Under the pieces are notes generated by a model, which saw nothing but the letters and a program-made list of their open reading frames with translations, ran no database searches and was not told the origin of the DNA. Of a stretch of 32,000 bases of DNA, positions 5,074-31,714 are shown piece by piece; positions within the stretch are counted from its first letter, which is position 1; every line of letters starts with the position of its first letter. A program made the position numbers and the translations under genes. This stretch comes from Kineococcus radiotolerans SRS30216 = ATCC BAA-149 (GTDB lineage: Bacteria; Actinomycetota; Actinomycetes; Actinomycetales; Kineococcaceae), in the NCBI RefSeq assembly GCF_000017305.1, contig NC_009664.2, forward strand, positions 3,690,001 to 3,722,000. Reading direction: 5' to 3'.

Positions 5074-6465
5074 TCAGGCCCCGCCCGTCCACCCCCCGGC
5101 GTCGACCCCGCCGGGCACGTCGGCGTCGGGGTCGTAGGGGGTGCGGGTCAGGCGGAAGCTGGCGAGGTCGAGGTGGCTCACGCCGCCGTCGGCGCCGCGG
5201 ACGGGCCGCAGCAGCTCCCCGGCGTAGTAGCCGTCCAGCCCGCGCCACAGCCCCGGCTCTCCGGCGGGCACGAACCGGGACGCCCGCCCGCGCCCGGTCA
5301 GGCCCCGCAGGTCGAAGCCGCCGTCGCGCCCGGCCCGGACCACCAGGGGGGACGGGCCCCAGTACCAGGGGCCGACCAGCTCGAGGACGTCGGCGGGGAC
5401 CTCCCGCGGCGCCCACGGCTCGGGGTCCAGCGGTTCCCGCTCGGCCAGCGTCGTCAGCAGCCGGGCCGGCAGGTCCCCGAACCCCGAGGTCGAGTTCGTC
5501 ATCACGACGACCCCGTCCCCGGTCTCGACGTCCACGCGCAGCATCGCGACGAACCCGGGCATGGAACCGGAGTGCCCCGCGTGGCGGCGACCGCCCGCGT
5601 TCCACACCTGCAACCCCAGGCCGTAGCCCACGCTCCACGCCGAGCCCCGGGCGTCGTCGACGCTCTGGGGTTCCCACATGGCCTCGACGGTGCTGCGCCG
5701 CAGCACGCCGGAGGTCCCCGCCACGACGCCCGCCCAGCGGGCCAGGTCGGCGACGGTGGACCACAGCTGCCCGGCGGGGGCCATCGCCCCGGCGTCGTGC
5801 TCGGGTTCGGGCAGGACGACGTCGGCCCAGGGGTGCACGGCCAGGCCGCGCGCGGCGGGGGCCTGCGGGCGCGGCGTGGTGCGCGTCATGCCGAGCGGCA
5901 CCAGGAACTGGGCGGCGACGACCTCGCGCCAGGTGCTGTCGCGGACCCGCCCGACGAGCTCGCCCAGGACGCCGAAGCCGACGTTGGAGTAGTGGAAGCG
6001 GGTCCCGGGCCGGTGCCGCACCGCGCTCTCCCCGAGGATCGGGCGCAGGGAGTCCCAGTCCCCGCCCTCGGTGCGCTCCCACCAGGGGCCGTCGGTCTCG
6101 GCCTGGACCCCGCCGGCCTGCCCGAGCAGCTGCCCGACGGTGACCCGCCCCACCCCGTCGACGAGCTCGGGCAGGTGCGCCCGCACGGGGTCCTCCAGCC
6201 CCACGAGGCCGTCCTCGACGGCCCGCAGGACCGCCGCGGCGACGAAGGTCTTGGAGATGGAACCCACCCGGTACTGGGTGTCCAGCGGGTCCGGCCCGGC
6301 GCCGGGCTCCCCGTCGACCCCGGTCGTGCCGCGACCGCCGCTCCACACCAGCCGGCCCCCGCGCACCAGACCGGCCACCACCGACGGCAGCCGGGCCTCG
6401 GACTGCTCGCGGGCGAGGAGGTGGTCCAGGGTGCGGGTGGTGCCGGGGAGCAGCGCGACGTCCAT
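5074..6465 (-). CDS. serine hydrolase, beta-lactamase/PBP4-like family (cytoplasmic)
   Basis: 463-aa ORF. S-x-x-K (GSISKTF), Y-x-N (HYSNVGF) and HSG (AGHSGSMPGF) motifs. No signal peptide visible. Confidence 0.85.
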   Translation of the reverse strand: MDVALLPGTTRTLDHLLAREQSEARLPSVVAGLVRGGRLVWSGGRGTTGVDGEPGAGPDPLDTQYRVGSISKTFVAAAVLRAVEDGLVGLEDPVRAHLPELVDGVGRVTVGQLLGQAGGVQAETDGPWWERTEGGDWDSLRPILGESAVRHRPGTRFHYSNVGFGVLGELVGRVRDSTWREVVAAQFLVPLGMTRTTPRPQAPAARGLAVHPWADVVLPEPEHDAGAMAPAGQLWSTVADLARWAGVVAGTSGVLRRSTVEAMWEPQSVDDARGSAWSVGYGLGLQVWNAGGRRHAGHSGSMPGFVAMLRVDVETGDGVVVMTNSTSGFGDLPARLLTTLAEREPLDPEPWAPREVPADVLELVGPWYWGPSPLVVRAGRDGGFDLRGLTGRGRASRFVPAGEPGLWRGLDGYYAGELLRPVRGADGGVSHLDLASFRLTRTPYDPDADVPGGVDAGGWTGGA

Positions 6466-14029: not shown

Positions 14030-14118
14030 GGTGGTTCCTCACAGGGGTCGGGAGACGGGACAACCCCGTCCCCGGCGGACCGGGAACGGGGTTGCGGGGT
14101 CGTGCGGGACCGGCTCGG

Positions 14119-15975
14119 TCAGAGACCGAGCTCGCCCTCGAACTCGCCGGCTTCGATGCGCTTCTTGACGGTCTGCAGGAAGCGGGCCGCGTCGGCGCCG
14201 TCGACGATCTGGTGGTCGTAGGACAGCGCCAGGTACATCATCGAGCGGATCGCGATGGTCTCCTGCCCGTCGACCTCGAGGACGACGGGACGCTTGACGA
14301 TCGCGCCGGTCCCGAGGATGGCGACCTGGGGCGCGTTGAGGATCGGGGTGTCGAACAGGGCCCCGATGCTGCCGGTGTTGGTGATGGTGAAGGTGCCCCC
14401 GGACAGGTCGTCGGGGGTGATCTTGCTGGCCCGGGTGCGGGCGGCCAGGTCGGCGATCTTGCGGGCCAGCCCGCCGAGGTTCAGGTCCCCGGCGTCCTTG
14501 ATGACCGGGGTGATGAGGCCCTTGGGGGTGTCCACGGCCATCGAGACGTTCTCGCTGCCGTGGTAGACGATGTTCTCGCCGTCGATGCTGGCGTTGAGCG
14601 AGGGGTGCTGCTTGAGCGCCTCGACCGCGGCCTTGACGAAGAACGGCAGGAAGGTCAGCTTCGCACCCTCGGTCGCGAGGAAGCCGTCCTTGGCCCGCGC
14701 CCGCAGGCGCGCGATCTTCGTGACGTCGACCTCGATGACGGTGGTCAGCTGCGCGGAGTTCTGCAGCGACTCCTTCATCCGCTGGGCGATGACCTTGCGC
14801 AGCCGCGACATCTTCTCCGTCGTGCCGCGCTTGGCCGAGACCTCCACGGCCGGAGCGGGCTTGGCGGCGGGCTTCTCGGCGGCCGCGGCCGGAGCCGGGG
14901 CGGCGGCCTCGGCGGCCTTCGCCTCAGCGGCCCTGGCGGCCTCCGCCGCCTTGTCCGCGGCCTCCTGCACGTCCTGCTTGCGCACCCGGCCGCCGACACC
15001 GGTGCCGGTGACGGTGGCGAGGTCCACGCCGAGGTCCTTGGCCAGCTTGCGCACCAGGGGGGTGACGTAGGTGCCGCCGCCGGTGACCTCGGCCGGGGCC
15101 GGGGTGCTCGCCGGAGCCTGCGGCGCGGGCGCAGCGGGGGCGGGAGCCGGCGCGACCGGCTGCGCGGGGGCGGAGGCGGGTTCCGCGCTGGGGGTCGAGG
15201 ACGGCTGGGTGGCGCTCTCGGCCTGGGCCCGGGCGGTCTCCCGCTCGGCCACCTCGTCGGCCAGCGACTCCTCCTGCGGCGCAGCGGGAGCCTCCTGGGC
15301 GGGGGCGGCCGGAGCCGGCGACGGGGCGGCGGAGGCGTCGCCGATGCGGGCCAGGTCCGCGCCGACGTCGGCGGTCTCGTCCTCGCCCACCAGGATCTCC
15401 AGCAGGGTGCCGGCGACGGGGGAGGGGATCTCGGTGTCGACCTTGTCGGTGGACACCTCCAGCAGCGGCTCGTCGACCTCGACGCTGTCGCCGACGGCCT
15501 TGAGCCAGCGGGTGACGGTGCCCTCGGTGACGGACTCCCCGAGCGCGGGCATCTTCACGGCCTCGCCCCCGCCGGGGGCGGGAGCCGCGGCGGCCGCGGG
15601 GGGCTCCTCGGGAGAGGGCTCCTGCGCCGCCTGCGGGGCGGCCTGCGTGTCCTCGGTGGACGGCGGGGCCGGGGCGTCCTGCGGCGCGGCCGGGGCCGGC
15701 TGCTCCTGCGGCGCGGGGGACCCGCCGCCCTGCTCGCTCGGGTCGCCGATGCGGGCCAGGTCGGCGCCGACGTCGGCGGTCTCGTCCTCGGGGACGAGGA
15801 TCTCCAGCAGGGTGCCGGCGACGGGGGAGGGGATCTCGGTGTCGACCTTGTCGGTGGACACCTCCAGGAGGGGTTCGTCCACCTCGACGGTGTCGCCGAC
15901 CGCCTTGAGCCACCGGGTGACGGTGCCCTCGGTCACGCTCTCGCCGAGAGCCGGCATCTGCACCGAGTTCGACAT
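14119..15975 (-). CDS. sucB: dihydrolipoamide acyl(succinyl)transferase E2 with two lipoyl domains
   Basis: ORF 14119..15993 trimmed to ATG 15975 (AGGAGA 9 nt upstream). Two lipoyl domains ([32 protein letters not shown]), PSBD ([33 protein letters not shown]) and catalytic [14 protein letters not shown]. Confidence 0.95.
15337..15959 (-). repeat. in-frame internal duplication (405-bp period) encoding the two lipoyl domains
   Basis: 15337-15554 and 15742-15959 align without gaps. The run 15392-15462 is identical to 15797-15867 (about 70 nt). Flanking parts differ mainly at synonymous positions. Confidence 0.85.
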
Positions 15976-16038
15976 CTCTACGGTTCTCCTCACGGACGTT
16001 CTCCGGCGCCCGGGGGACGCCGCGGGTTCAGGTGCGGG

Positions 16039-17418
16039 TCAGGCGTGCGAGTGCAGGGGCTTGCCGGCCAGGGCGAGGAAGGCCTCGCCGACCGCCTCGT
16101 TCTGCGTCGGGTGGGTGTGCACGAGGGAGGCGACGTCGTCGGGGTAGGCCTCCCAGTTCACGATGAGCTGGGCCTCGCCGACCTGCTCGCTCATGCGGGA
16201 ACCGACCATGTGCACGCCGACGACGGGGCCGTCCTTCTGCCGCACCAGCTTCACGAAGCCGGTGGTGCCGATGATCTGGCTCTTGCCGTTGCCGCCGAGG
16301 TTGTACTCGACGACGTCGACGTCGCCGTACTTCTCCCGCGCCTTGGCCTCGGTCAGCCCCACGGAGGCGACCTCGGGTTCGCAGTAGGTGACCTTGGGGA
16401 TGCCGAGCTCGTCGATCGGGGCCGGGGCGAGGCCGGCGATGTCCTCGGCCACGAAGATGCCCTGGGCGAACCCGCGGTGGGCCAGCTGCAGGCCGGGGAC
16501 GATGTCGCCGACGGCGTAGACGCCCTCGACGTTCGTCCGCAGCCGCTCGTCGGTGAGGACGAAGCCGCGGTCCATGGTGATGCCCTGGTCCTCGTAGCCC
16601 AGGCCGGCGGTGTTGGGGCCGCGGCCCACGGCCACGAGCATGAGGTCGGCCTCGAACGTCTTGCCGTCCTCGAGGGAGACCACGACGCCGGAGTCGGTCT
16701 GCTCCACGCCCTTGAACCGGACGCCGAGGGAGAACTTGATGCCCCGCTTGCGGAAGGCGCGCTCGAGGGCCTTGCTGGCGGCCTCGTCCTCGAGGGGGAC
16801 CAGGTGCGGGAGGGCCTCGACGATCGTGACGTCGGCGCCGAAGGAGCGCCACACGCTGGCGAACTCCACGCCGATGACGCCGCCGCCGAGGACGACGACC
16901 CGGTCGGGGACGGAGTCCAGGGCGAGGGCCTGCTCGCTGGTCATGATCCGGCCGCCGACCTCGAGGCCGGGGAGGCTGCGGGAGTAGGAACCGGAGGCCA
17001 GGACGACGGCCTTGCCGGTGTAGCGCTGACCGTCCACCTCGACGGTGTTCTTGGCCACGAGCTTGCCGGTGCCCGCGACGAGGTCGATCTTGCGGGACTT
17101 CACCAGGCCCTGCAGACCCTTGTACAGGCGGGCGATGACGCCGTCCTTGTACTTGTTGACCCCGGCCATGTCGATCGAGTCGAACGTGGCGCGGACCCCG
17201 AAGGTCTCGGACTCCTTGGCGCTGTCGGCGACCTCGGCGGCGTGCAGCAGGGCCTTGGTCGGGATGCACCCGCGGTGCAGGCAGGTCCCGCCCAGGAGGT
17301 CCTTCTCCACGAGGGCCACCTTCAGGCCCAGTTCGGCGGAACGCAGCGCGCAGGCGTAACCCCCGCTGCCTCCCCCGAGGATGACGACGTCGTACTGCTG
17401 CTCGGCGGCACCTGCCAC
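16039..17418 (-). CDS. lpdA: dihydrolipoyl dehydrogenase (E3)
   Basis: ORF 16039..17475 trimmed to GTG 17418 (AGGAG 6 nt upstream). DVVILGGGSGGY, redox disulfide GGTCLHRGCIPTK, C-terminal HTHPTQNEAVGEA. Confidence 0.95.
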   Translation of the reverse strand: MAGAAEQQYDVVILGGGSGGYACALRSAELGLKVALVEKDLLGGTCLHRGCIPTKALLHAAEVADSAKESETFGVRATFDSIDMAGVNKYKDGVIARLYKGLQGLVKSRKIDLVAGTGKLVAKNTVEVDGQRYTGKAVVLASGSYSRSLPGLEVGGRIMTSEQALALDSVPDRVVVLGGGVIGVEFASVWRSFGADVTIVEALPHLVPLEDEAASKALERAFRKRGIKFSLGVRFKGVEQTDSGVVVSLEDGKTFEADLMLVAVGRGPNTAGLGYEDQGITMDRGFVLTDERLRTNVEGVYAVGDIVPGLQLAHRGFAQGIFVAEDIAGLAPAPIDELGIPKVTYCEPEVASVGLTEAKAREKYGDVDVVEYNLGGNGKSQIIGTTGFVKLVRQKDGPVVGVHMVGSRMSEQVGEAQLIVNWEAYPDDVASLVHTHPTQNEAVGEAFLALAGKPLHSHA

Positions 17419-17555
17419 GAAATGCTCCTGAGGTCGGCTGTGCTGGCGACTGCTCCGTCGCGATCCTCTCACCACGACCTCGGCGGAGCGCGAGGGGGTC
17501 GTGACCCTCCGCCCGGGCGGGGGAGGGCTGCGGCCGGGGAGGATCCGGCCCGGAC

Positions 17556-17632
17556 GCGCGACAGCGCCCGTCCCGGGGGATCAGGCGCTGTCGTGCGGGA
17601 GTGCGGTCCTCCCGGAACCCCGCGGGGTCCGG
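17556..17632 (-). terminator. two GC-rich hairpins downstream of the small repeat-protein gene
   Basis: Hairpin 1: GCGCGACAGCGCC (17556-17568) pairs with GGCGCTGTCGTGC (17584-17596), 13 bp including one G-U. Hairpin 2: 17612-17632, CCGGAACCC / GGGTCCGG with one bulge. Both lie between the stop at 17640 and the lpdA start. No U-tract. Confidence 0.35.
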
Positions 17633-17639
17633 GGGGAGC

Positions 17640-18029
17640 TCAGCGCTCCTTCTCGGTGTTGAGGGACTCCTTGCGCGCGGTCACGGACTCCTTGCGCGCG
17701 GTCACGGACTCCTTGCGCGCGGTCACGGACTCCTTGCGCGCGGTCACGGACTCCTTGCGCGCGGTCACGGACTCCTTGCGCGCGGTCACGGACTCCTTGC
17801 GCGCGGTCACGGACTCCTTGCGCGCGCTGACCGATTCCTTGCGCTCGACGACGGACGTCGACTTCTGCCCCAGGACGACCTTCGTGGTCGTCAGGGTGGC
17901 CGAGGGGGCCGCCGAGGCGCTCACGGCCGTGGCGAGGCCGCCGCCGGCGAGCACGGCGGTGGCGGCGAGGCCGGCCGCGAACCGGGCGAGGTGACGGGAC
18001 GTGCGGGAGTGCGGGGCGCTGCTGGACAT
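17640..18029 (-). CDS. small predicted secreted protein composed of RKESVTA heptad repeats
   Basis: 129-aa ORF with ATG 18029 and GGAGG 4 nt upstream. Sec-type signal peptide MSSSAPHSRTSRHLARFAAGLAATAVLAGGGLATAVSASA/AP. The mature part is a short Thr/Ser-rich segment followed by nine RKES-containing heptads. Nearly every third codon position is G/C in this frame, which is not true of the plus-strand readings. Confidence 0.7.
   Translation of the reverse strand: MSSSAPHSRTSRHLARFAAGLAATAVLAGGGLATAVSASAAPSATLTTTKVVLGQKSTSVVERKESVSARKESVTARKESVTARKESVTARKESVTARKESVTARKESVTARKESVTARKESLNTEKER
17658..17846 (-). repeat. 21-bp tandem repeat, seven perfect copies flanked by one degenerate copy on each side
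   Basis: Unit GGTCACGGACTCCTTGCGCGC. Perfect copies start at 17679, 17700, 17721, 17742, 17763, 17784 and 17805. Degenerate copies lie at 17658-17678 and 17826-17846. The repeat is in frame (7 codons). Confidence 0.97.
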
Positions 18030-18205
18030 GGTGCCTCCGTGACGTGTCCCCCGGTGGGCACCGAGGGAGCCTGGGGATGGACAGAACCGGCCGGGATCGA
18101 TGACGCCCCCGAGCAGGTCGTCACGCTGAGCATATAGCTAGTCGCTCAGAGTGCACGACCGGAATCGAGAAGGATCACCGGGGACGTCCGTCGAGGACCC
18201 CACCG

Positions 18206-18255: not shown

Positions 18256-19758
18256 TCAGCGCCCGGCGCGGTCCTCGGCGAGGGCGACCAGGGTGCGCAC
18301 GGCCACGCCCGTCCCGCCCCGGTGGGTGTACCCCCAGGGCTCGCCCGTCACGAAGGCCGGGCCGGCGATGTCGAGGTGCGCCCACGGGATGGGGGTGCCC
18401 AGGCTCGAGGTGCCGACGAACTCGCGCAGGAACACCGCCGCGACGAGCATCCCGCCGGCCCGGTCGCCGATGTTGGCGAGGTCGGCGACGGGGGAGTCCA
18501 GCGTCGCGCGCAGCTCGTCGGGCAGCGGCATCGGCCAGAACGACTCCCCGGCGCGCTCGGCCGCGGCGAGCACCGCGGTGCGGAAGGCCTCGTCGTTGCC
18601 CATCACGCCGGAGACGCGGTTGCCCAGCGCGACGACCTGCGCACCGGTGAGGGTGGCGACGTCGACGATGGCGTCGGGCTGCTCCTGCGAGGCGGCGACG
18701 AGGGCGTCGCCGAGGACCAGCCGGCCCTCCGCGTCGGTGTTGAGGACCTCCACCGTCGTGCCGCCGTGCATCGTCAGCACGTCCGAGGGGCGGATCGCGG
18801 TGCCGGAGGGCATGTTCTCGGCCACGGCCAGCCAGCCGGTGACCTTGATCGGCAGGTCGAGCTCGGCGACGGCGCGCAGCGCGGCCAGCACGGCCGCCGC
18901 CCCCGACATGTCGCTCTTCATCGTCTCCATGCCCGCCGCGGGCTTGAGCGAGAGACCGCCGGAGTCGAAGGTGATGCCCTTGCCCACGAGGGCGAGGTGC
19001 CCCTGGGCCCGGGCCGGGGAGTGCTCGAGCACGACCAGCCGCGGCGGGCGGGAGGACCCCTGCCCGACCCCGAGGATGCCGCCGTAGCCGCCGTCGGCCA
19101 GCGCCTGCTCGTCGAGGACCCAAACGGTCAGGGAGGTGCCCTCGGCGGCGCGCACGGCCTCGGCCGCGAGGTCGGCCGGGGCGAGGTCGGCCGGGGCGGT
19201 GTTGATCAGGTCGCGGGCCGTGGCCACGGCCCGGGCCAGCACCGAGGCCCGCTCGACGGCGGCGCGGGCGGCCTTGTCGCGGGGCTTGTCCACGAGCAGC
19301 GAGACCTCGGCGACCGGTTCTCGCTCCGCGGCGCGGTAGCGGGTGAAGGCGTACGCGCCCAGGGCCGCGCCCTCGGCCACCGCGCCGAGGGCGCCCGCGT
19401 CCGGGGTCGGCAGGGCGAGGGCCACCCGGCGCTTGCCGGCGAGGGCGCGCACCGCGGCACCCGCCGCGCGGCGCAGCGTCTCGTGGTCGGGGTCGGTCCC
19501 CACCCCCGTGAGGGCCACCAGCGGGGTCGCGAGCCCGGGGGTGCCCGGGACCAGGTGCACGGTGCCGGCCTCGCCGCTCGCCCCCACGGCCAGGGCCGCG
19601 TCGGCCAGCGCGGACCGCGTCGCCCGGGGCAGGTCGTCCCCGCCCAGCACCACGGGCGCGCCCGGCCGCTTCCCGGTCGCCGGGGCGAGGCCCACGACCA
19701 GGGCGTCGACCGACACGCTCTTGACGGACTTGCTGCTGAGGAGGAGACGCGGCACCAC
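18256..19758 (-). CDS. pepA: leucyl aminopeptidase (M17)
   Basis: 500-aa ORF with GTG start. VGKGITFDSGGLSLKP and the M17 signature NTDAEGRLVLGDAL. Confidence 0.93.
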   Translation of the reverse strand: MVPRLLLSSKSVKSVSVDALVVGLAPATGKRPGAPVVLGGDDLPRATRSALADAALAVGASGEAGTVHLVPGTPGLATPLVALTGVGTDPDHETLRRAAGAAVRALAGKRRVALALPTPDAGALGAVAEGAALGAYAFTRYRAAEREPVAEVSLLVDKPRDKAARAAVERASVLARAVATARDLINTAPADLAPADLAAEAVRAAEGTSLTVWVLDEQALADGGYGGILGVGQGSSRPPRLVVLEHSPARAQGHLALVGKGITFDSGGLSLKPAAGMETMKSDMSGAAAVLAALRAVAELDLPIKVTGWLAVAENMPSGTAIRPSDVLTMHGGTTVEVLNTDAEGRLVLGDALVAASQEQPDAIVDVATLTGAQVVALGNRVSGVMGNDEAFRTAVLAAAERAGESFWPMPLPDELRATLDSPVADLANIGDRAGGMLVAAVFLREFVGTSSLGTPIPWAHLDIAGPAFVTGEPWGYTHRGGTGVAVRTLVALAEDRAGR

Positions 19759-30573: not shown

Positions 30574-30606
30574 CCCCCTCGACGTCGGTCGCCGACGTCG
30601 AGGGGG
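30574..30606. terminator. perfect 15-bp stem hairpin between convergent genes (candidate bidirectional terminator)
   Basis: CCCCCTCGACGTCGG (30574-30588), loop TCG, CCGACGTCGAGGGGG (30592-30606). It starts 13 nt after the stop at 30561. Confidence 0.6.
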
Positions 30607-30779
30607 CGGCGCCGCGGGCCTAGCTCGGGCGCTCGGTCGGCGCGCTGGCCGCGGTGCGGGCCGGGTCGCGCTCCACGACGTCCCCGAGGGCGGCGCCGCG
30701 GGCCTAGCTCGGGCGCTCGGTCGGCGCGCTGGCCGCGGTGCGGGCCGGGTCGCGCTCCACGACGTCCCCGAGGGCGGCG
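30607..30779. repeat. perfect 84-bp tandem duplication (plus 5 nt of a third copy) spanning the aldo/keto reductase stop codon
   Basis: 30607-30690 is identical base for base to 30691-30774 (compared by hand), and CGGCG recurs at 30775-30779. GGGCGGCG microhomology is present at all three junctions. Confidence 0.97.
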
Positions 30780-31714
30780 TCGACCCGCTGCATCAGCTCC
30801 GCGGGGATCCTCACCCCGGACGCCTTGACGTTCTCGTGCACCTGCTCGGGCCGCGAGGCGCCGATGATGGCGGCGGCCACGTTGTCGTTCTGCAGGACCC
30901 AGGCCACCGCGAGCTGCGCCATCGACAGCTGCAGCTCGCTCGCGACCGACTTCAGCTGCTGGACCCGCGACAGGACGTCGTCGCGCATCCAGCGGCTGAT
31001 CATCTGCTTGCCGCCCTTCTCGTCCGTGGCGCGGCTGCCCTCCGGCGGCGCGCCGCCGGGGGTGTACTTGCCGGTCAGCACGCCCTGGGCGATGGGGGAG
31101 AAGACGACCTGCGAGATGCCGAGCTCGCGCGAGGCCGGGACGACCTCCGGCTCGATGACCCGGTAGAGGGCGGAGTACTGCGGTTGGTTCGAGATGAGCT
31201 GGAAGCCCAGGTCCTTCGCCAGCGCGTGGCCCTGGCGGAGCTGGTCGGCGGTCCACTCGCTGACGCCGATGTAGAGGGCCTTGCCCGCGCGGACCACGTC
31301 GGCGAAGGCCTGCATGGTCTCCTCGACCGGCGTCGAGACGTCCCAGCGGTGGGCCTGGTAGACGTCGACGTGGTCGGTGCCCAGCCGCTTCAGCGAACCG
31401 TCGATGGACTCCAGGACGTGCTTGCGGGACAGCCCCGAGTCGTTGTGGCCCTTGGGACCGGTCGGGAAGTAGACCTTGGTGAGGATCTCCAGGCTCTCCC
31501 GGCGCTGCCCCTTGAGCGCCGTGCCCAGGACCGTCTCCGCCGCGGTGTTCGCGTAGACGTCGGCGGTGTCGAACGTCGTGATGCCGACGTCGAGCGCGGC
31601 GTGCACGCACGCGACCGCGGCGTCGTTCTCCACCTGGGAGCCGTGGGTGAGCCAGTTGCCGTAGGTGATCTCAGAGATCTTCAGACCGCTGCGGCCGAGG
31701 TGTCGGAACTCCAT
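30704..31714 (-). CDS. aldo/keto reductase (Kv-beta/YghZ-like subgroup)
   Basis: 336-aa ORF. MEFRHLGRSGLKISEITYGNW, FDTADVYA, LGTDHVDVYQAHRWD, YIGVSEW, PQYSALYR. Confidence 0.93.
   Translation of the reverse strand: MEFRHLGRSGLKISEITYGNWLTHGSQVENDAAVACVHAALDVGITTFDTADVYANTAAETVLGTALKGQRRESLEILTKVYFPTGPKGHNDSGLSRKHVLESIDGSLKRLGTDHVDVYQAHRWDVSTPVEETMQAFADVVRAGKALYIGVSEWTADQLRQGHALAKDLGFQLISNQPQYSALYRVIEPEVVPASRELGISQVVFSPIAQGVLTGKYTPGGAPPEGSRATDEKGGKQMISRWMRDDVLSRVQQLKSVASELQLSMAQLAVAWVLQNDNVAAAIIGASRPEQVHENVKASGVRIPAELMQRVDAALGDVVERDPARTAASAPTERPS

What the first reader, a model, noticed from the sequence alone, without database searches (positions are those of the whole stretch)
17640..18029. 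Predicted secreted 129-aa protein made of nine RKESVTA heptads, encoded by seven perfect 21-bp tandem repeats
Seen directly: a self-contained gene sits between lpdA and pepA.
- It has a good SD and ATG, a Sec-type signal peptide ending ASA/AP, and hairpins on its downstream side.
- About 70% of the mature part is (RKESVTA)n.
- Seven DNA units are identical base for base, which implies recent expansion or concerted evolution. Because the unit is 21 nt, copy-number change would alter length without breaking the frame, as in a VNTR.
- Each heptad carries R, K and E (net +1) plus S and T, and only V and A as hydrophobic residues.
- The a/d positions of a coiled coil are not hydrophobic, and there is no i/i+4 E-K pairing.
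Inference: a disordered, basic, hydrophilic exoprotein seems more likely than a structured rod. There is no LPXTG motif, lipobox or recognisable catalytic motif. I cannot place it in any family I know. Speculative roles include a hydrophilin/LEA-like protectant, a binder of anionic envelope or matrix polymers, or a spacer/stalk.
Basis: partly seen in the sequence, partly recalled or inferred. Interest (0 to 1): 0.7.

Follow-up and report, generated by a model that had tools for sequence, protein, structure and literature searches.

The report
Kineococcus-only secreted RKES repeat protein
This is a real small gene, found between the same two housekeeping genes in every Kineococcus genome examined, that encodes an exported protein made almost entirely of short Arg-Lys-Glu-Ser units whose number changes even between close strains; it matches no described family and its role is unknown.

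Summary
ORF 17640-18029 (-) encodes 129 aa: a signal peptide ending ASA|A, a 22-aa Ser/Thr-rich linker, nine heptads and a C-terminal EKER. Seven heptads are identical 21-bp units (17676-17822).

It is a real gene. All 11 other Kineococcus loci, plus a near-identical strain, carry an ORF in the same slot, strand and frame. All 11 other species also share the ATG, a GGAGG Shine-Dalgarno site and a promoter-like block (12 of 13 sequences match the full TGCAC-N16-TATGCTC-N3-GTGAC; L004 lacks the TGCAC end). Only [R/K]-K-E-[S/A] is conserved in the units. The other 2-5 residues, the unit length (5-8 aa), the DNA period (21-84 bp) and the copy number (6-39) differ by species. A strain about 0.8% diverged has 11 units instead of 9, so it behaves as a VNTR.

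No Pfam, NCBIfam, Rfam or PDB family fits, and no relative appears in the protein collections searched. Other genera lack the gene.

AlphaFold2 gives a confident single helix for this allele. Against a conserved rod or coiled coil: there is no hydrophobic seam and no i/i+4 salt bridges, the unit period varies, and one orthologue has a proline in most of its units.

Best guess, at low confidence: an extended, highly hydrated, net-basic chain in the cell envelope or matrix. Function is untested. Interest is moderate.

The parts
18120..18156 (-). Promoter-like conserved block: GTGCAC-N16-TATGCT(C)-N3-GTGAC. TATGCT fits the actinobacterial -10 pattern TAnnnT; the -35 position is a poor match to TTGACA.
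   Evidence: Twelve of the 13 sequences searched match the full block with fixed geometry; L004 matches only the TATGCTC-N3-GTGAC half. It occurs once per locus and nowhere else in the 32-kb window. The generic sigma-70 scan did not call it. Promoter function is inferred.
18030..18124 (-). Putative 5' leader of about 95 nt, with a 5-bp hairpin GUGAC...GUCA(U/C) at 18101-18123 and a species-variable GC-rich hairpin just before the SD site.
   Evidence: The alignment of 12 leaders gives only the 5-bp stem as consensus, with no compensatory changes. No Rfam family matches.
18034..18038 (-). Shine-Dalgarno site GGAGG, 4 nt before the ATG.
   Evidence: Invariant in all 12 aligned species.
17640..18029 (-). 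Coding sequence, 129 codons plus TGA.
   Evidence: GC3 is 0.98 in this frame. The same frame is open and syntenic in all Kineococcus loci.
17910..18029 (-). Signal peptide, residues 1-40: MSSSAPHSRTSRHLARFAAGLAATAVLAGGGLATAVSASA, with predicted SPase I cleavage after ASA.
   Evidence: The n/h/c architecture and AxA motif are conserved in every orthologue. No signal-peptide predictor was available, so cleavage is inferred.
17844..17909 (-). Ser/Thr/Ala/Val-rich linker, residues 41-62 (APSATLTTTKVVLGQKSTSVVE).
   Evidence: Present in all orthologues with variable length and sequence.
17655..17843 (-). Array of nine 21-bp / 7-aa units (RKESVSA, 7 x RKESVTA, RKESLNT). The seven identical units occupy 17676-17822.
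   Evidence: A close strain has 11 units. Other species have 6-39 units of 5-8 aa.
17643..17654 (-). C-terminal EKER. It reads as a truncated last unit: xKE plus the R of a next unit, then stop.
   Evidence: The ending is E[K/R]ER in 10 of the 11 complete Kineococcus orthologues aligned (window included) and again in L204. K. siccus ends TEWLR, and L006 is cut off by the contig end. The terminal Arg is invariant where the end is seen.
17504..17637 (-). Run of GC-rich hairpins between the stop codon and lpdA. The strongest is at 17555-17597. Likely a transcription stop or RNA-stabilising structures.
   Evidence: MFE is -98.3 kcal/mol with z = -2.8 against shuffles. There is no U-tract and the terminator scan found nothing. 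The function is inferred.

Best explanation
Shown:
- This is a separately signalled, genus-restricted protein-coding gene of Kineococcus. It sits between pepA and lpdA and has its own conserved promoter-like block, leader, SD site and ATG.
- The product has an N-terminal signal peptide with an AxA cleavage site.
- The mature part is an array of [R/K]-K-E-[S/A]-x(1-4) units that ends in E[K/R]ER.
- The array turns over quickly by gain and loss of whole units. Every DNA period seen (21 to 84 bp) is a multiple of three, so the frame never breaks.
- Selection keeps the frame, the RKE(S) core, a positive net charge and the export signal.

Inferred (the mechanism I think most likely):
- After Sec export and signal-peptidase cleavage, the mature chain has no lipid, sortase or transmembrane anchor. 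It acts outside the membrane as an extended, strongly hydrated, net-basic polyampholyte.
- It is probably flexible or only conditionally helical.
- It would be held non-covalently in the anionic wall or extracellular polymer layer through many weak electrostatic contacts, one per RKE unit. There it would contribute to hydration or cohesion of the envelope or matrix.
- Repeat number would tune reach and valency.
For: Gene reality:
- The same slot, strand and frame occur in 12 of 12 Kineococcus species loci and in a near-identical strain.
- ATG and GGAGG are invariant across the 12 aligned species. The full promoter-like block matches in 12 of 13 sequences searched; L004 lacks the TGCAC end.
- GC3 is 0.86-0.99.

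Protein-level constraint:
- K and E are invariant in 133 of 133 units.
- Ser at position 4 is encoded by TCC, TCG and AGC, and Glu by GAG and GAA.
- All six variant units among the nine RKESVTA units of the sister strain are synonymous (GTA x2, GAA x4).

Turnover:
- Copy number ranges from 6 to 39, and species-specific DNA periods are 21, 36, 39, 42, 63 and 84 bp.
- Strains about 0.8% apart have 9 versus 11 units.

Export:
- The n/h/c regions and AxA motif are conserved in all orthologues.
- There is no Cys, LPXTG or second hydrophobic segment.

Extended polyampholyte:
- The fraction of charged residues is 0.36-0.48.
- Net charge per residue is +0.03 to +0.12, and net charge is +2 to +38, positive in every orthologue.
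- Charge mixing kappa is 0.05-0.08 and GRAVY is -0.6 to -1.7.
- Charge-rich, well-mixed sequences are expected to be expanded (PMC9171777).

Against a fixed fold:
- Unit spacing is 5, 6, 7 or 8 aa.
- K. siccus has a proline in 9 of 13 units.
- A Pro-bearing look-alike is predicted as coil with pLDDT about 55.
- The hydrophobic moment is not consistent across orthologues.
Against: - AlphaFold2 predicts a single helix over residues 42-128 with pLDDT about 96 for this allele. A rod is therefore not excluded, although high pLDDT can also mark conditionally folding disordered regions (PMC10622901).
- The strict order R-K-E-S is more specific than simple charge or hydration would need. That points to recognition by a partner or an enzyme.
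- Net charge falls to +2 in one species, which weakens a pure polycation model.
- No expression, secretion, localisation or phenotype data exist.
- No signal-peptide predictor was run.
Confidence: 0.4

Rival explanations
1. It is a self-associating alpha-helical rod or stalk in the envelope, in the spirit of Braun's lipoprotein or a surface-protein stalk. Its length would be set by repeat number.
For: - AF2 predicts one uninterrupted helix of about 87 residues at pLDDT about 96.
- The best PDB sequence match is the designed trimer heptad VSALKEK in 4LIY, E = 4e-4.
- Sub-threshold Pfam and NCBIfam hits, and the profile hits of the look-alike proteins, are all to coiled-coil segments such as LPP, RNase_Y_N and DUF3450.
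- With Ser4 as position a and position 7 as d, Arg and Glu fall at e and g. Position 7 is Leu, Phe or Val in several species.
Against: - Relative to VSALKEK, the d position is Arg.
- No heptad position pair is hydrophobic across species. The conserved residues are the charged ones, and the putative core positions are the variable ones.
- Units of 5, 6 and 8 aa break any heptad register.
- K. siccus has Pro in 9 of 13 units.
- There are no i/i+3 or i/i+4 salt bridges.
- A six-fold length range across the genus argues against a calibrated spacer.
- The structure search found nothing.
Confidence: 0.2
2. It is a polyprotein precursor. After export, a protease cuts at each Arg-Lys site and releases many copies of short, species-specific peptides such as ESVTA, ESTTL or EAAPL. 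This would work like fungal KEX2-processed repeat proteins, yeast alpha-factor or animal prohormones.
For: - The architecture matches: a signal peptide followed by tandem short cores, each flanked by a dibasic pair. KEPs are defined this way (PMC7329392, PMC6339444).
- The conservation pattern fits. The flanking RKE is invariant while the 2-5 residues between differ by species and are homogenised within a species.
- The gene has its own conserved regulatory block.
Against: - No cognate protease, transporter, receptor or modification gene lies nearby. The neighbours are pepA, a cytosolic M17 peptidase, and lpdA.
- The pair is RK, not the KR/RR preferred by kexins.
- Several species carry many different cores in one protein, and the cores vary in length from 2 to 5 residues.
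- No bacterial precedent was found.
Confidence: 0.1
3. It is an extracellular LEA-like desiccation or radiation protectant that gains helix on drying, specific to this stress-tolerant genus.
For: - Extreme hydrophilicity, with a composition dominated by K, E, R, S, T and A, and a tandem short motif.
- The AF2 helix is compatible with conditional folding (PMC10622901).
- LEA3 repeat proteins do protect Deinococcus (PMC8213827, PMC6559209).
Against: - There is no LEA Pfam hit.
- Units are 5-8 aa, not 11-mers.
- Gly is 0-3.8%, below the hydrophilin cut-off as I recall it.
- The predicted helix is not amphipathic.
- A signal peptide would put the protein outside the cytoplasm.
- No expression data link it to drying.
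Confidence: 0.15
4. It is not a functional protein. The element would be a DNA-level minisatellite in an intergenic spacer, or the true coding frame would be another one.
For: - CGC-AAG-GAG is almost invariant at the DNA level (CGC 119, CGG 1). It contains the SD-like hexamer AAGGAG.
- The antisense frame that shares third codon positions also has GC3 0.98.
- dN/dS of the N-terminal part is high, 0.2-1.8.
Against: - The antisense ORF is the usual high-GC shadow. It runs antisense through sucB and lpdA.
- Only the minus-strand frame keeps its start, SD site, signal peptide and stop in the other species.
- Ser switches between the TCN and AGC codon families, and Glu between GAG and GAA, while the amino acids stay the same.
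- All strain-level unit variants are synonymous.
- Every array period is a multiple of 3.
Confidence: 0.04

Closest known systems
Erp, the exported repetitive protein of Mycobacterium (PGLTS repeats)
   Same: Both are actinobacterial, restricted to one genus (for Erp this is from memory) and exported through a signal peptide. Both have a central domain built of short tandem peptide repeats (PMC2639381). That the Erp repeat number differs between species is my recollection.
   Different: The Erp unit is the uncharged pentapeptide PGLTS, and Erp has a hydrophobic C-terminal domain (my recollection). Here the unit is charged RKE(S)xxx and the protein ends in EKER with no hydrophobic tail. There is no sequence similarity.
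Extended low-complexity stalk regions of Gram-positive surface proteins (staphylococcal Aap, SasG and Sdr-type stalks)
   Same: Both are repetitive, highly charged or polar extracellular segments that stay extended whatever their exact sequence (PMC9881980). In both, length is set by repeat number.
   Different: Those stalks are parts of large LPXTG-anchored proteins with folded functional domains. This protein is only a signal peptide plus an array, with no anchor and no domain.
Designed and natural polar heptad coiled coils (VSALKEK trimer in PDB 4LIY; Braun's lipoprotein Lpp, PF04728)
   Same: Heptad periodicity in this allele and the pattern V-[S/T]-A-x-K-E-x. It is small, exported and predicted all-helical.
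   Different: The d-position Leu is Arg here. There is no lipobox and no C-terminal Lys. No Lpp profile hit appeared at E<=1. Orthologues use 5-, 6- and 8-residue units or contain Pro.
KEX2-processed repeat proteins (KEPs) and prohormone polyproteins
   Same: A signal peptide followed by tandem short cores separated by a conserved dibasic site. The cores diverge between species (PMC7329392, PMC6339444).
   Different: KEPs are eukaryotic and depend on Golgi kexin cutting after KR/RR. Here the organism is a bacterium, the pair is RK, and no processing enzyme or product is known.
Group 3 LEA proteins and hydrophilins
   Same: A very hydrophilic tandem-repeat protein in a desiccation-tolerant organism, with possible helix gain (PMC6559209).
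   Different: LEA3 uses 11-mers that form amphipathic helices and is mostly cytosolic. Here there is no LEA profile hit, Gly is low, the helix is not amphipathic and a signal peptide is present.
In-frame perfect tandem repeats that create disordered protein regions (for example in Borg elements)
   Same: Perfect nucleotide repeats in multiples of three lie inside ORFs, evolve fast and encode disorder-promoting residues (10.1101/2022.05.18.492195).
   Different: That describes a genome-wide property of archaeal extrachromosomal elements. This is a single orthologous chromosomal locus kept across a bacterial genus.

Membership tests
Sec-type (SPase I) secretory signal peptide | Basic n-region, a hydrophobic h-region of 15-25 residues, and small residues at -3/-1 (AxA). 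| tested here: met
   Read directly: R9, R12 and R16; h-region FAAGLAATAVLAGGGLATAV; A38-S39-A40|A41. The same layout is seen in all orthologues. No trained predictor was available.
Tat signal peptide | Twin arginine in a (S/T)-R-R-x-F-L-K-like motif before the h-region. | tested here: not met
   The window and L204 have LARFAAG, with a single Arg. Ten of the 11 other species have ARR[A/T], but L005 has FARTAAL there and its RR lies upstream at LRRF. The export route is therefore unresolved, but Tat is not a property of this allele.
Bacterial lipoprotein / Braun's lipoprotein (Lpp, PF04728) | Lipobox L-[A/S]-[G/A]-C; for Lpp also a hydrophobic a/d heptad and a C-terminal Lys. | tested here: not met
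   There is no Cys anywhere in the protein, the C-terminus is Arg, and PF04728 was not among the hits at E<=1.
Sortase-anchored surface protein | C-terminal LPXTG, a hydrophobic stretch and a basic tail. | tested here: not met
   The protein ends ...RKESLNTEKER, with no LPXTG and no C-terminal hydrophobic segment.
Canonical coiled coil | Hydrophobic residues at heptad positions a and d, kept along the array and across homologues. | tested here: not met
   Only Val5 and Ala7 are apolar, and they are spaced i/i+2. The variable positions are the candidate core positions. Units of 5, 6 and 8 aa occur in orthologues, and the hydrophobic moment is inconsistent.
Single alpha-helix (ER/K, SAH) domain | Dense opposite-charge pairs at i/i+4 (and i/i+3). 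| tested here: not met
   Opposite-charge pairs at i+3/i+4 number 1/0 in the repeat part of the window protein, and are similar in most orthologues.
LEA group 3 (LEA_4) / hydrophilin | 11-mer repeats with a LEA profile match; for hydrophilins, Gly >6% plus high hydrophilicity (cut-off from memory). | tested here: not met
   No LEA family appears in Pfam at E<=1. Units are 5-8 aa. Gly is 1.1% here and 0-3.8% in orthologues, although GRAVY is -0.93.
Ice-binding beta-roll (PF21300, LbR_Ice_bind) | Profile match above the gathering score; a regular 14-15-residue coil. | tested here: not met
   The score is 19.5 bits against a cut-off of 30. AF2 gives no strand. The unit length is irregular across the genus.
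Mycobacterial Erp | PGLTS pentapeptide repeats and a C-terminal hydrophobic domain. | tested here: not met
   Neither feature is present, and there is no similarity in any search.
Repeat polyprotein precursor (KEP-like) | (a) Signal peptide. (b) Tandem cores each flanked by a dibasic site. (c) A processing protease and released peptides. | tested here: inconclusive
   (a) and (b) are met in form, with RK at every unit. (c) is not testable with these tools, and no candidate partner gene lies in the neighbourhood.
Coding VNTR (in-frame minisatellite) | Unit length a multiple of 3, and copy number differing between close strains. | tested here: met
   The unit is 21 bp. The window has 9 units and GCA_014191015.1 has 11, with about 0.8% flanking divergence.

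The most novel reading that the evidence does not exclude
The gene encodes a bacterial repeat polyprotein. After export it would be cut at every conserved Arg-Lys site into dozens of short, species-specific peptides (ESVTA and relatives) that act as extracellular signals or effectors. That would be an actinobacterial counterpart of fungal KEX2-processed repeat proteins and animal prohormones, with repeat number setting the peptide dose.
Probability: 0.1. Interest if true: 0.8.

Novelty: new variant of a known kind. Interest (0 to 1): 0.45.

Why it matters
- It defines a taxonomically restricted gene family that matches no curated family searched. It was also not retrievable from the protein collections searched, although a 143-codon gene is called at this position in one NCBI assembly.
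- Across a whole genus, selection keeps only a four-residue motif, an export signal and a regulatory block. Everything else, including length, is free to change. That makes it a clean natural system for asking what a short linear motif array does outside a Gram-positive cell.
- It can also show how in-frame minisatellites evolve under protein-level constraint, and whether such arrays contribute to the envelope or matrix properties of a genus known for desiccation and radiation tolerance.
- Practically, the array breaks short-read assemblies at this locus. It could also serve as a strain-typing marker.

Tried and rejected
- Pfam and NCBIfam scans of the protein gave only sub-threshold coiled-coil or low-complexity hits.
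- Rfam on the whole window found nothing.
- A word-indexed protein search with the single sequence, and another with a 10-species profile, returned only a Pontibacillus low-complexity ORF, generic actinobacterial signal peptides and one KKExAPL metagenome ORF.
- Exact look-ups of 11 orthologue sequences found none in the collection.
- An exhaustive phmmer search of the mature part against 1.84 billion representatives gave 530 hits. None of the 150 listed contained RKES. All those inspected were unrelated heptad or low-complexity proteins, or probable spurious ORFs, and their repeats hit generic coiled-coil profiles.
- The PDB sequence search gave only designed heptad coils. Foldseek of the model against PDB found nothing.
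- The generic promoter and terminator scans made no calls.
- The leader alignment showed no covariation-supported structure.
- dN/dS on the N-terminal part (0.2-1.8) was too noisy and saturated to show constraint.
- Literature searches for Kineococcus plus repeats, proteome or transcriptome found nothing on this gene.
Paralogues and other copies of the promoter block elsewhere in Kineococcus genomes therefore could not be searched.
Full report
**1. What is in the sequence**

The minus strand of 17640-18029 carries an ATG-to-TGA ORF of 129 codons. Tandem Repeats Finder reports a 21-bp array at 17664-17844 with 8.6 copies, 97% match and score 334. Only one other array in the 32-kb window scores comparably: a perfect 84-bp duplication at 30604-30779, score 352.

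Unit by unit, the array reads:
- RKESVSA at 17823-17843;
- seven base-identical copies of CGCAAGGAGTCCGTGACCGCG (RKESVTA) at 17676-17822;
- RKESLNT at 17655-17675;
- then EKER and the stop.

Other features:
- GGAGG lies 4 nt upstream of the ATG.
- The N-terminus has a basic n-region, a 20-residue Ala/Leu/Gly h-region and SASA|AP.
- The protein has no Cys, no LPXTG and no second hydrophobic stretch.
- Downstream there is a run of GC-rich hairpins (MFE -98 kcal/mol, z = -2.8) without a U-tract.
- The neighbours are an M17 leucyl aminopeptidase (18256-19758) and dihydrolipoyl dehydrogenase (16039-17418), followed by the E2 component.

**2. It is a real gene, and the frame is the one proposed**

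GC3 is 0.98 in the proposed frame. In a 75% GC genome the antisense frame that shares third positions scores the same, so composition alone cannot decide. Comparison between species can.

A scan of species-representative genomes with pepA identified the organism as a Kineococcus; the best pepA identity was 88%.
- All eleven Kineococcus loci recovered have an ORF in the same slot, on the same strand and in the same frame. Each has a signal peptide (consensus ARRAxxxxAAAVLAGGGLxTAxSASAA), a short Ser/Thr/Ala linker and an array of RKE-containing units. Ten end in E[K/R]ER followed by a stop; K. siccus ends TEWLR, and L006 is cut off by its contig end.
- The ATG and GGAGG are invariant.
- About 95 nt upstream lies a promoter-like block, TGCAC-N16-TATGCTC-N3-GTGAC. 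It has fixed geometry, matches in full in 12 of the 13 sequences searched (L004 keeps only the TATGCTC-N3-GTGAC half) and occurs nowhere else in the window or loci. TATGCT fits the actinobacterial -10 pattern TAnnnT, but the -35 position is poor. Promoter function is therefore inferred, possibly activator-dependent.
- The leader has only a 5-bp conserved hairpin without covariation, and no Rfam family matches.

**3. What is and is not conserved in the array**

Across 133 units from 12 species:
- Lys2 and Glu3 are invariant.
- Position 1 is Arg, or Lys throughout K. siccus.
- Position 4 is Ser in 109 units and otherwise mostly Ala.
- The remaining 1-4 residues differ freely between species: VTA, STA, VVT, TTD, TTL, ISL/VNL, AAPL and others.

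Spacing between RKE motifs is 7 in most species. It is 6 in L006, a mix of 6 and 7 in L008 and L012, and alternates 8 and 5 in L013.

Ser4 uses both codon families (TCC 58, TCG 43, AGC 8), and Glu uses GAG and GAA. The amino acids, not just the DNA, are therefore being kept.

Each species has its own higher-order DNA period (21, 36, 39, 42, 63 or 84 bp), and several are perfect or near-perfect. Copy number runs from 6 to 39: K. sp. G2 has 18.5 perfect copies of a 42-bp double unit, giving a 330-aa protein. This is the signature of continuing unit gain, loss and homogenisation under a protein-level constraint on a four-residue core.

**4. Strain-level variation**

The exact lpdA protein of the window also occurs in NCBI assembly GCA_014191015.1 (locus L204). 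There a 143-codon gene is called between pepA and lpdA.
- Its product is the same protein with 11 units instead of 9.
- Flanking DNA differs by about 0.8%.
- Its nine RKESVTA units come in three blocks: GTA x2, the canonical unit x3 and GAA x4. All differences are synonymous. This shows block-wise duplication and, again, no amino-acid change.
- Metagenome and Logan contigs carrying the same lpdA begin inside the array and show further alleles, such as three GAA units and RKESLST versus RKESLNT.
- Contigs with the same pepA end inside or just before the array.

The array is therefore a genuine coding VNTR and a recurrent assembly breakpoint. The exact count of nine in this window cannot be verified independently.

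**5. Distribution and database status**

Outside Kineococcus, the pepA-lpdA gap takes one of two forms. It is either about 60-150 bp (up to about 340 bp in a few loci) with no such gene, or it holds an unrelated, conserved gene of about 109 aa on the opposite strand, seen in 27 loci, with no Pfam family.

The searches for relatives gave:
- Pfam and NCBIfam: only sub-threshold coiled-coil-type hits.
- Single-sequence and 10-species-profile searches of 5.8 billion proteins: no orthologue.
- Exact look-ups of 11 orthologue sequences: none found.
- An exhaustive phmmer search of the mature part against 1.84 billion representatives: 530 hits, none of the 150 listed containing RKES, and all those inspected unrelated heptad or low-complexity sequences.

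One metagenomic ORF (P0002, locus L083) has a signal peptide plus KKExAPL heptads like K. siccus, but it sits in a different context next to an HTH_17 gene. Its relation is unclear.

Because a gene is called in GCA_014191015.1, I claim only that the family is absent from the collections searched. I do not claim that it is unannotated everywhere.

**6. Structure**

The closest solved sequence is the designed trimer heptad VSALKEK in 4LIY. Our VTARKES matches it except that the core d-position Leu is Arg.

Arguments against a conserved rod or coiled coil:
- No pair of heptad positions is hydrophobic across species, and the conserved residues are the charged ones.
- Opposite charges never sit at i/i+3 or i/i+4 (1 and 0 pairs), so it is not a single-alpha-helix domain.
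- The helical hydrophobic moment is low and inconsistent.
- The 5-, 6- and 8-residue units break any register.
- K. siccus has a proline in 9 of its 13 units.
- The Pro-bearing look-alike P0002 is predicted as coil with pLDDT about 55.

Sequence statistics:
- fraction of charged residues 0.36-0.48;
- net charge per residue +0.03 to +0.12, always positive (+2 to +38);
- charge-mixing kappa 0.05-0.08;
- GRAVY -0.6 to -1.7.

These values describe a well-mixed strong polyampholyte, expected to be expanded (PMC9171777). High pLDDT helices in such sequences can reflect conditional folding (PMC10622901). My reading is an extended, hydrated chain with high helical propensity in this allele, not a fold shared by the whole family.

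**7. Mechanism**

Steps shown:
- a separate gene with its own signals;
- an export-type N-terminus;
- no anchor motif;
- a motif array under protein-level constraint with free length.

Steps inferred:
- Sec export and cleavage after ASA;
- a mature chain retained non-covalently among anionic wall or matrix polymers through one weak basic contact per unit;
- a role in hydration or cohesion of the envelope or matrix, with repeat number tuning reach and valency.

I put this at about 0.4. The strict order R-K-E-S is more specific than charge alone needs, which keeps alive two other readings. One is recognition by a partner. The other is a precursor model in which the invariant RK is a cleavage site and the variable residues are released peptides. 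That architecture is the same as fungal KEPs (PMC7329392, PMC6339444). It has no bacterial precedent that I found and no partner gene nearby, so I give it about 0.1. A helical rod gets about 0.2, a LEA-like protectant about 0.15 and a non-functional element about 0.04.

**8. Comparison with known systems**

- It works most like the extended low-complexity stalks and exported repeat proteins of Gram-positive bacteria and actinobacteria: staphylococcal stalk regions (PMC9881980) and mycobacterial Erp with PGLTS repeats (PMC2639381). It is a member of neither, having no LPXTG, no folded domain, no PGLTS and no hydrophobic C-terminus.
- It fails the defining tests for Lpp, canonical coiled coils, SAH domains, LEA3/hydrophilins, ice-binding beta-rolls, lipoproteins and, for this allele, Tat substrates.
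- It passes the tests for an SPase-I-type signal peptide (by reading only) and for a coding VNTR.

**9. Verdict**

- gene, frame, VNTR behaviour and family-less status are supported;
- 'disordered rather than rod' is unresolved.

The finding is a new, genus-restricted family within a known broad kind, namely exported tandem-repeat, low-complexity proteins. It is moderately interesting. The cross-genus conservation of only a four-residue motif plus regulatory signals is a neat result, and the precursor reading would be striking if true. Nothing here yet overturns expectations, and function is wholly untested.

Noticed in passing
window 30604-30779: A perfect 84-bp tandem duplication (2.1 copies, 100% match) covers the 3' end and stop codon of an aldo/keto-reductase-like ORF (30704-31714, minus strand). 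A second copy of the gene's last roughly 25 codons plus stop therefore lies just downstream.
   Followed up: partly
window 18120-18156 (-), and the same position in L001-L013 and L204: A promoter-like block, GTGCAC-N16-TATGCTC-N3-GTGAC, is unique to this gene's upstream region. It includes a conserved AGCnAC inside the spacer, which suggests a dedicated regulator site. The full pattern matches in 12 of the 13 sequences searched (L004 has only the TATGCTC-N3-GTGAC half), and L204 carries it too. No other copy occurs in the 32-kb window.
   Followed up: partly
L014-L082 (for example L072:5510-5836, minus strand): In 27 non-Kineococcus actinobacterial loci, the pepA-lpdA gap holds a conserved gene of about 109 aa on the opposite strand (motif ...EAFIEPPTRVTQTTMVVVA..GEWTRR.VPD...GYPSRMREW). 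It has no Pfam family. It is absent from the window and from all Kineococcus loci, where the RKES gene occupies the slot instead.
   Followed up: partly
L025, about 5664-6386 (plus strand; estimated from the offset): An uncultured actinomycete MAG has, in the same gap, a 240-aa ORF with an N-terminal hydrophobic segment, an acidic low-complexity middle and C-terminal KQPKP/HKAKE repeats. It is a different protein of a similar general style, with no Pfam hit.
   Followed up: no
L006 (JBPBQU010000618.1): A contig filed under a Janthinobacterium lividum MAG carries a Kineococcus-like pepA (75% identity) and the RKES gene with 6-residue units (RKESVQ/RKESVA). This is probably bin contamination. 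The contig ends inside the array.
   Followed up: no
L001, L002, L205-L209, L006, L007, L009, L012: Short-read contigs from many independent assemblies end at or just after this array. The locus is a systematic assembly breakpoint.
   Followed up: yes
window 17655-17843 (-): Each unit contains AAGGAG, a perfect Shine-Dalgarno-like hexamer, 3 nt before an in-frame GTG. That gives nine internal SD-like sites in one short mRNA. The spacing is too short for likely internal initiation, but it might affect ribosome transit.
   Followed up: no
L083:336-602 (protein P0002): A metagenome contig encodes an 88-aa ORF with a signal peptide plus KKExAPL heptads, resembling the K. siccus orthologue. It lies next to an HTH_17 gene rather than between pepA and lpdA. 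AlphaFold2 predicts no helix in its repeats.
   Followed up: partly
window 14092-17994 (+): A 1300-codon stop-free ORF runs antisense through sucB, lpdA and the repeat. This is the usual high-GC shadow frame, not a gene, but automated callers could be misled by it.
   Followed up: partly
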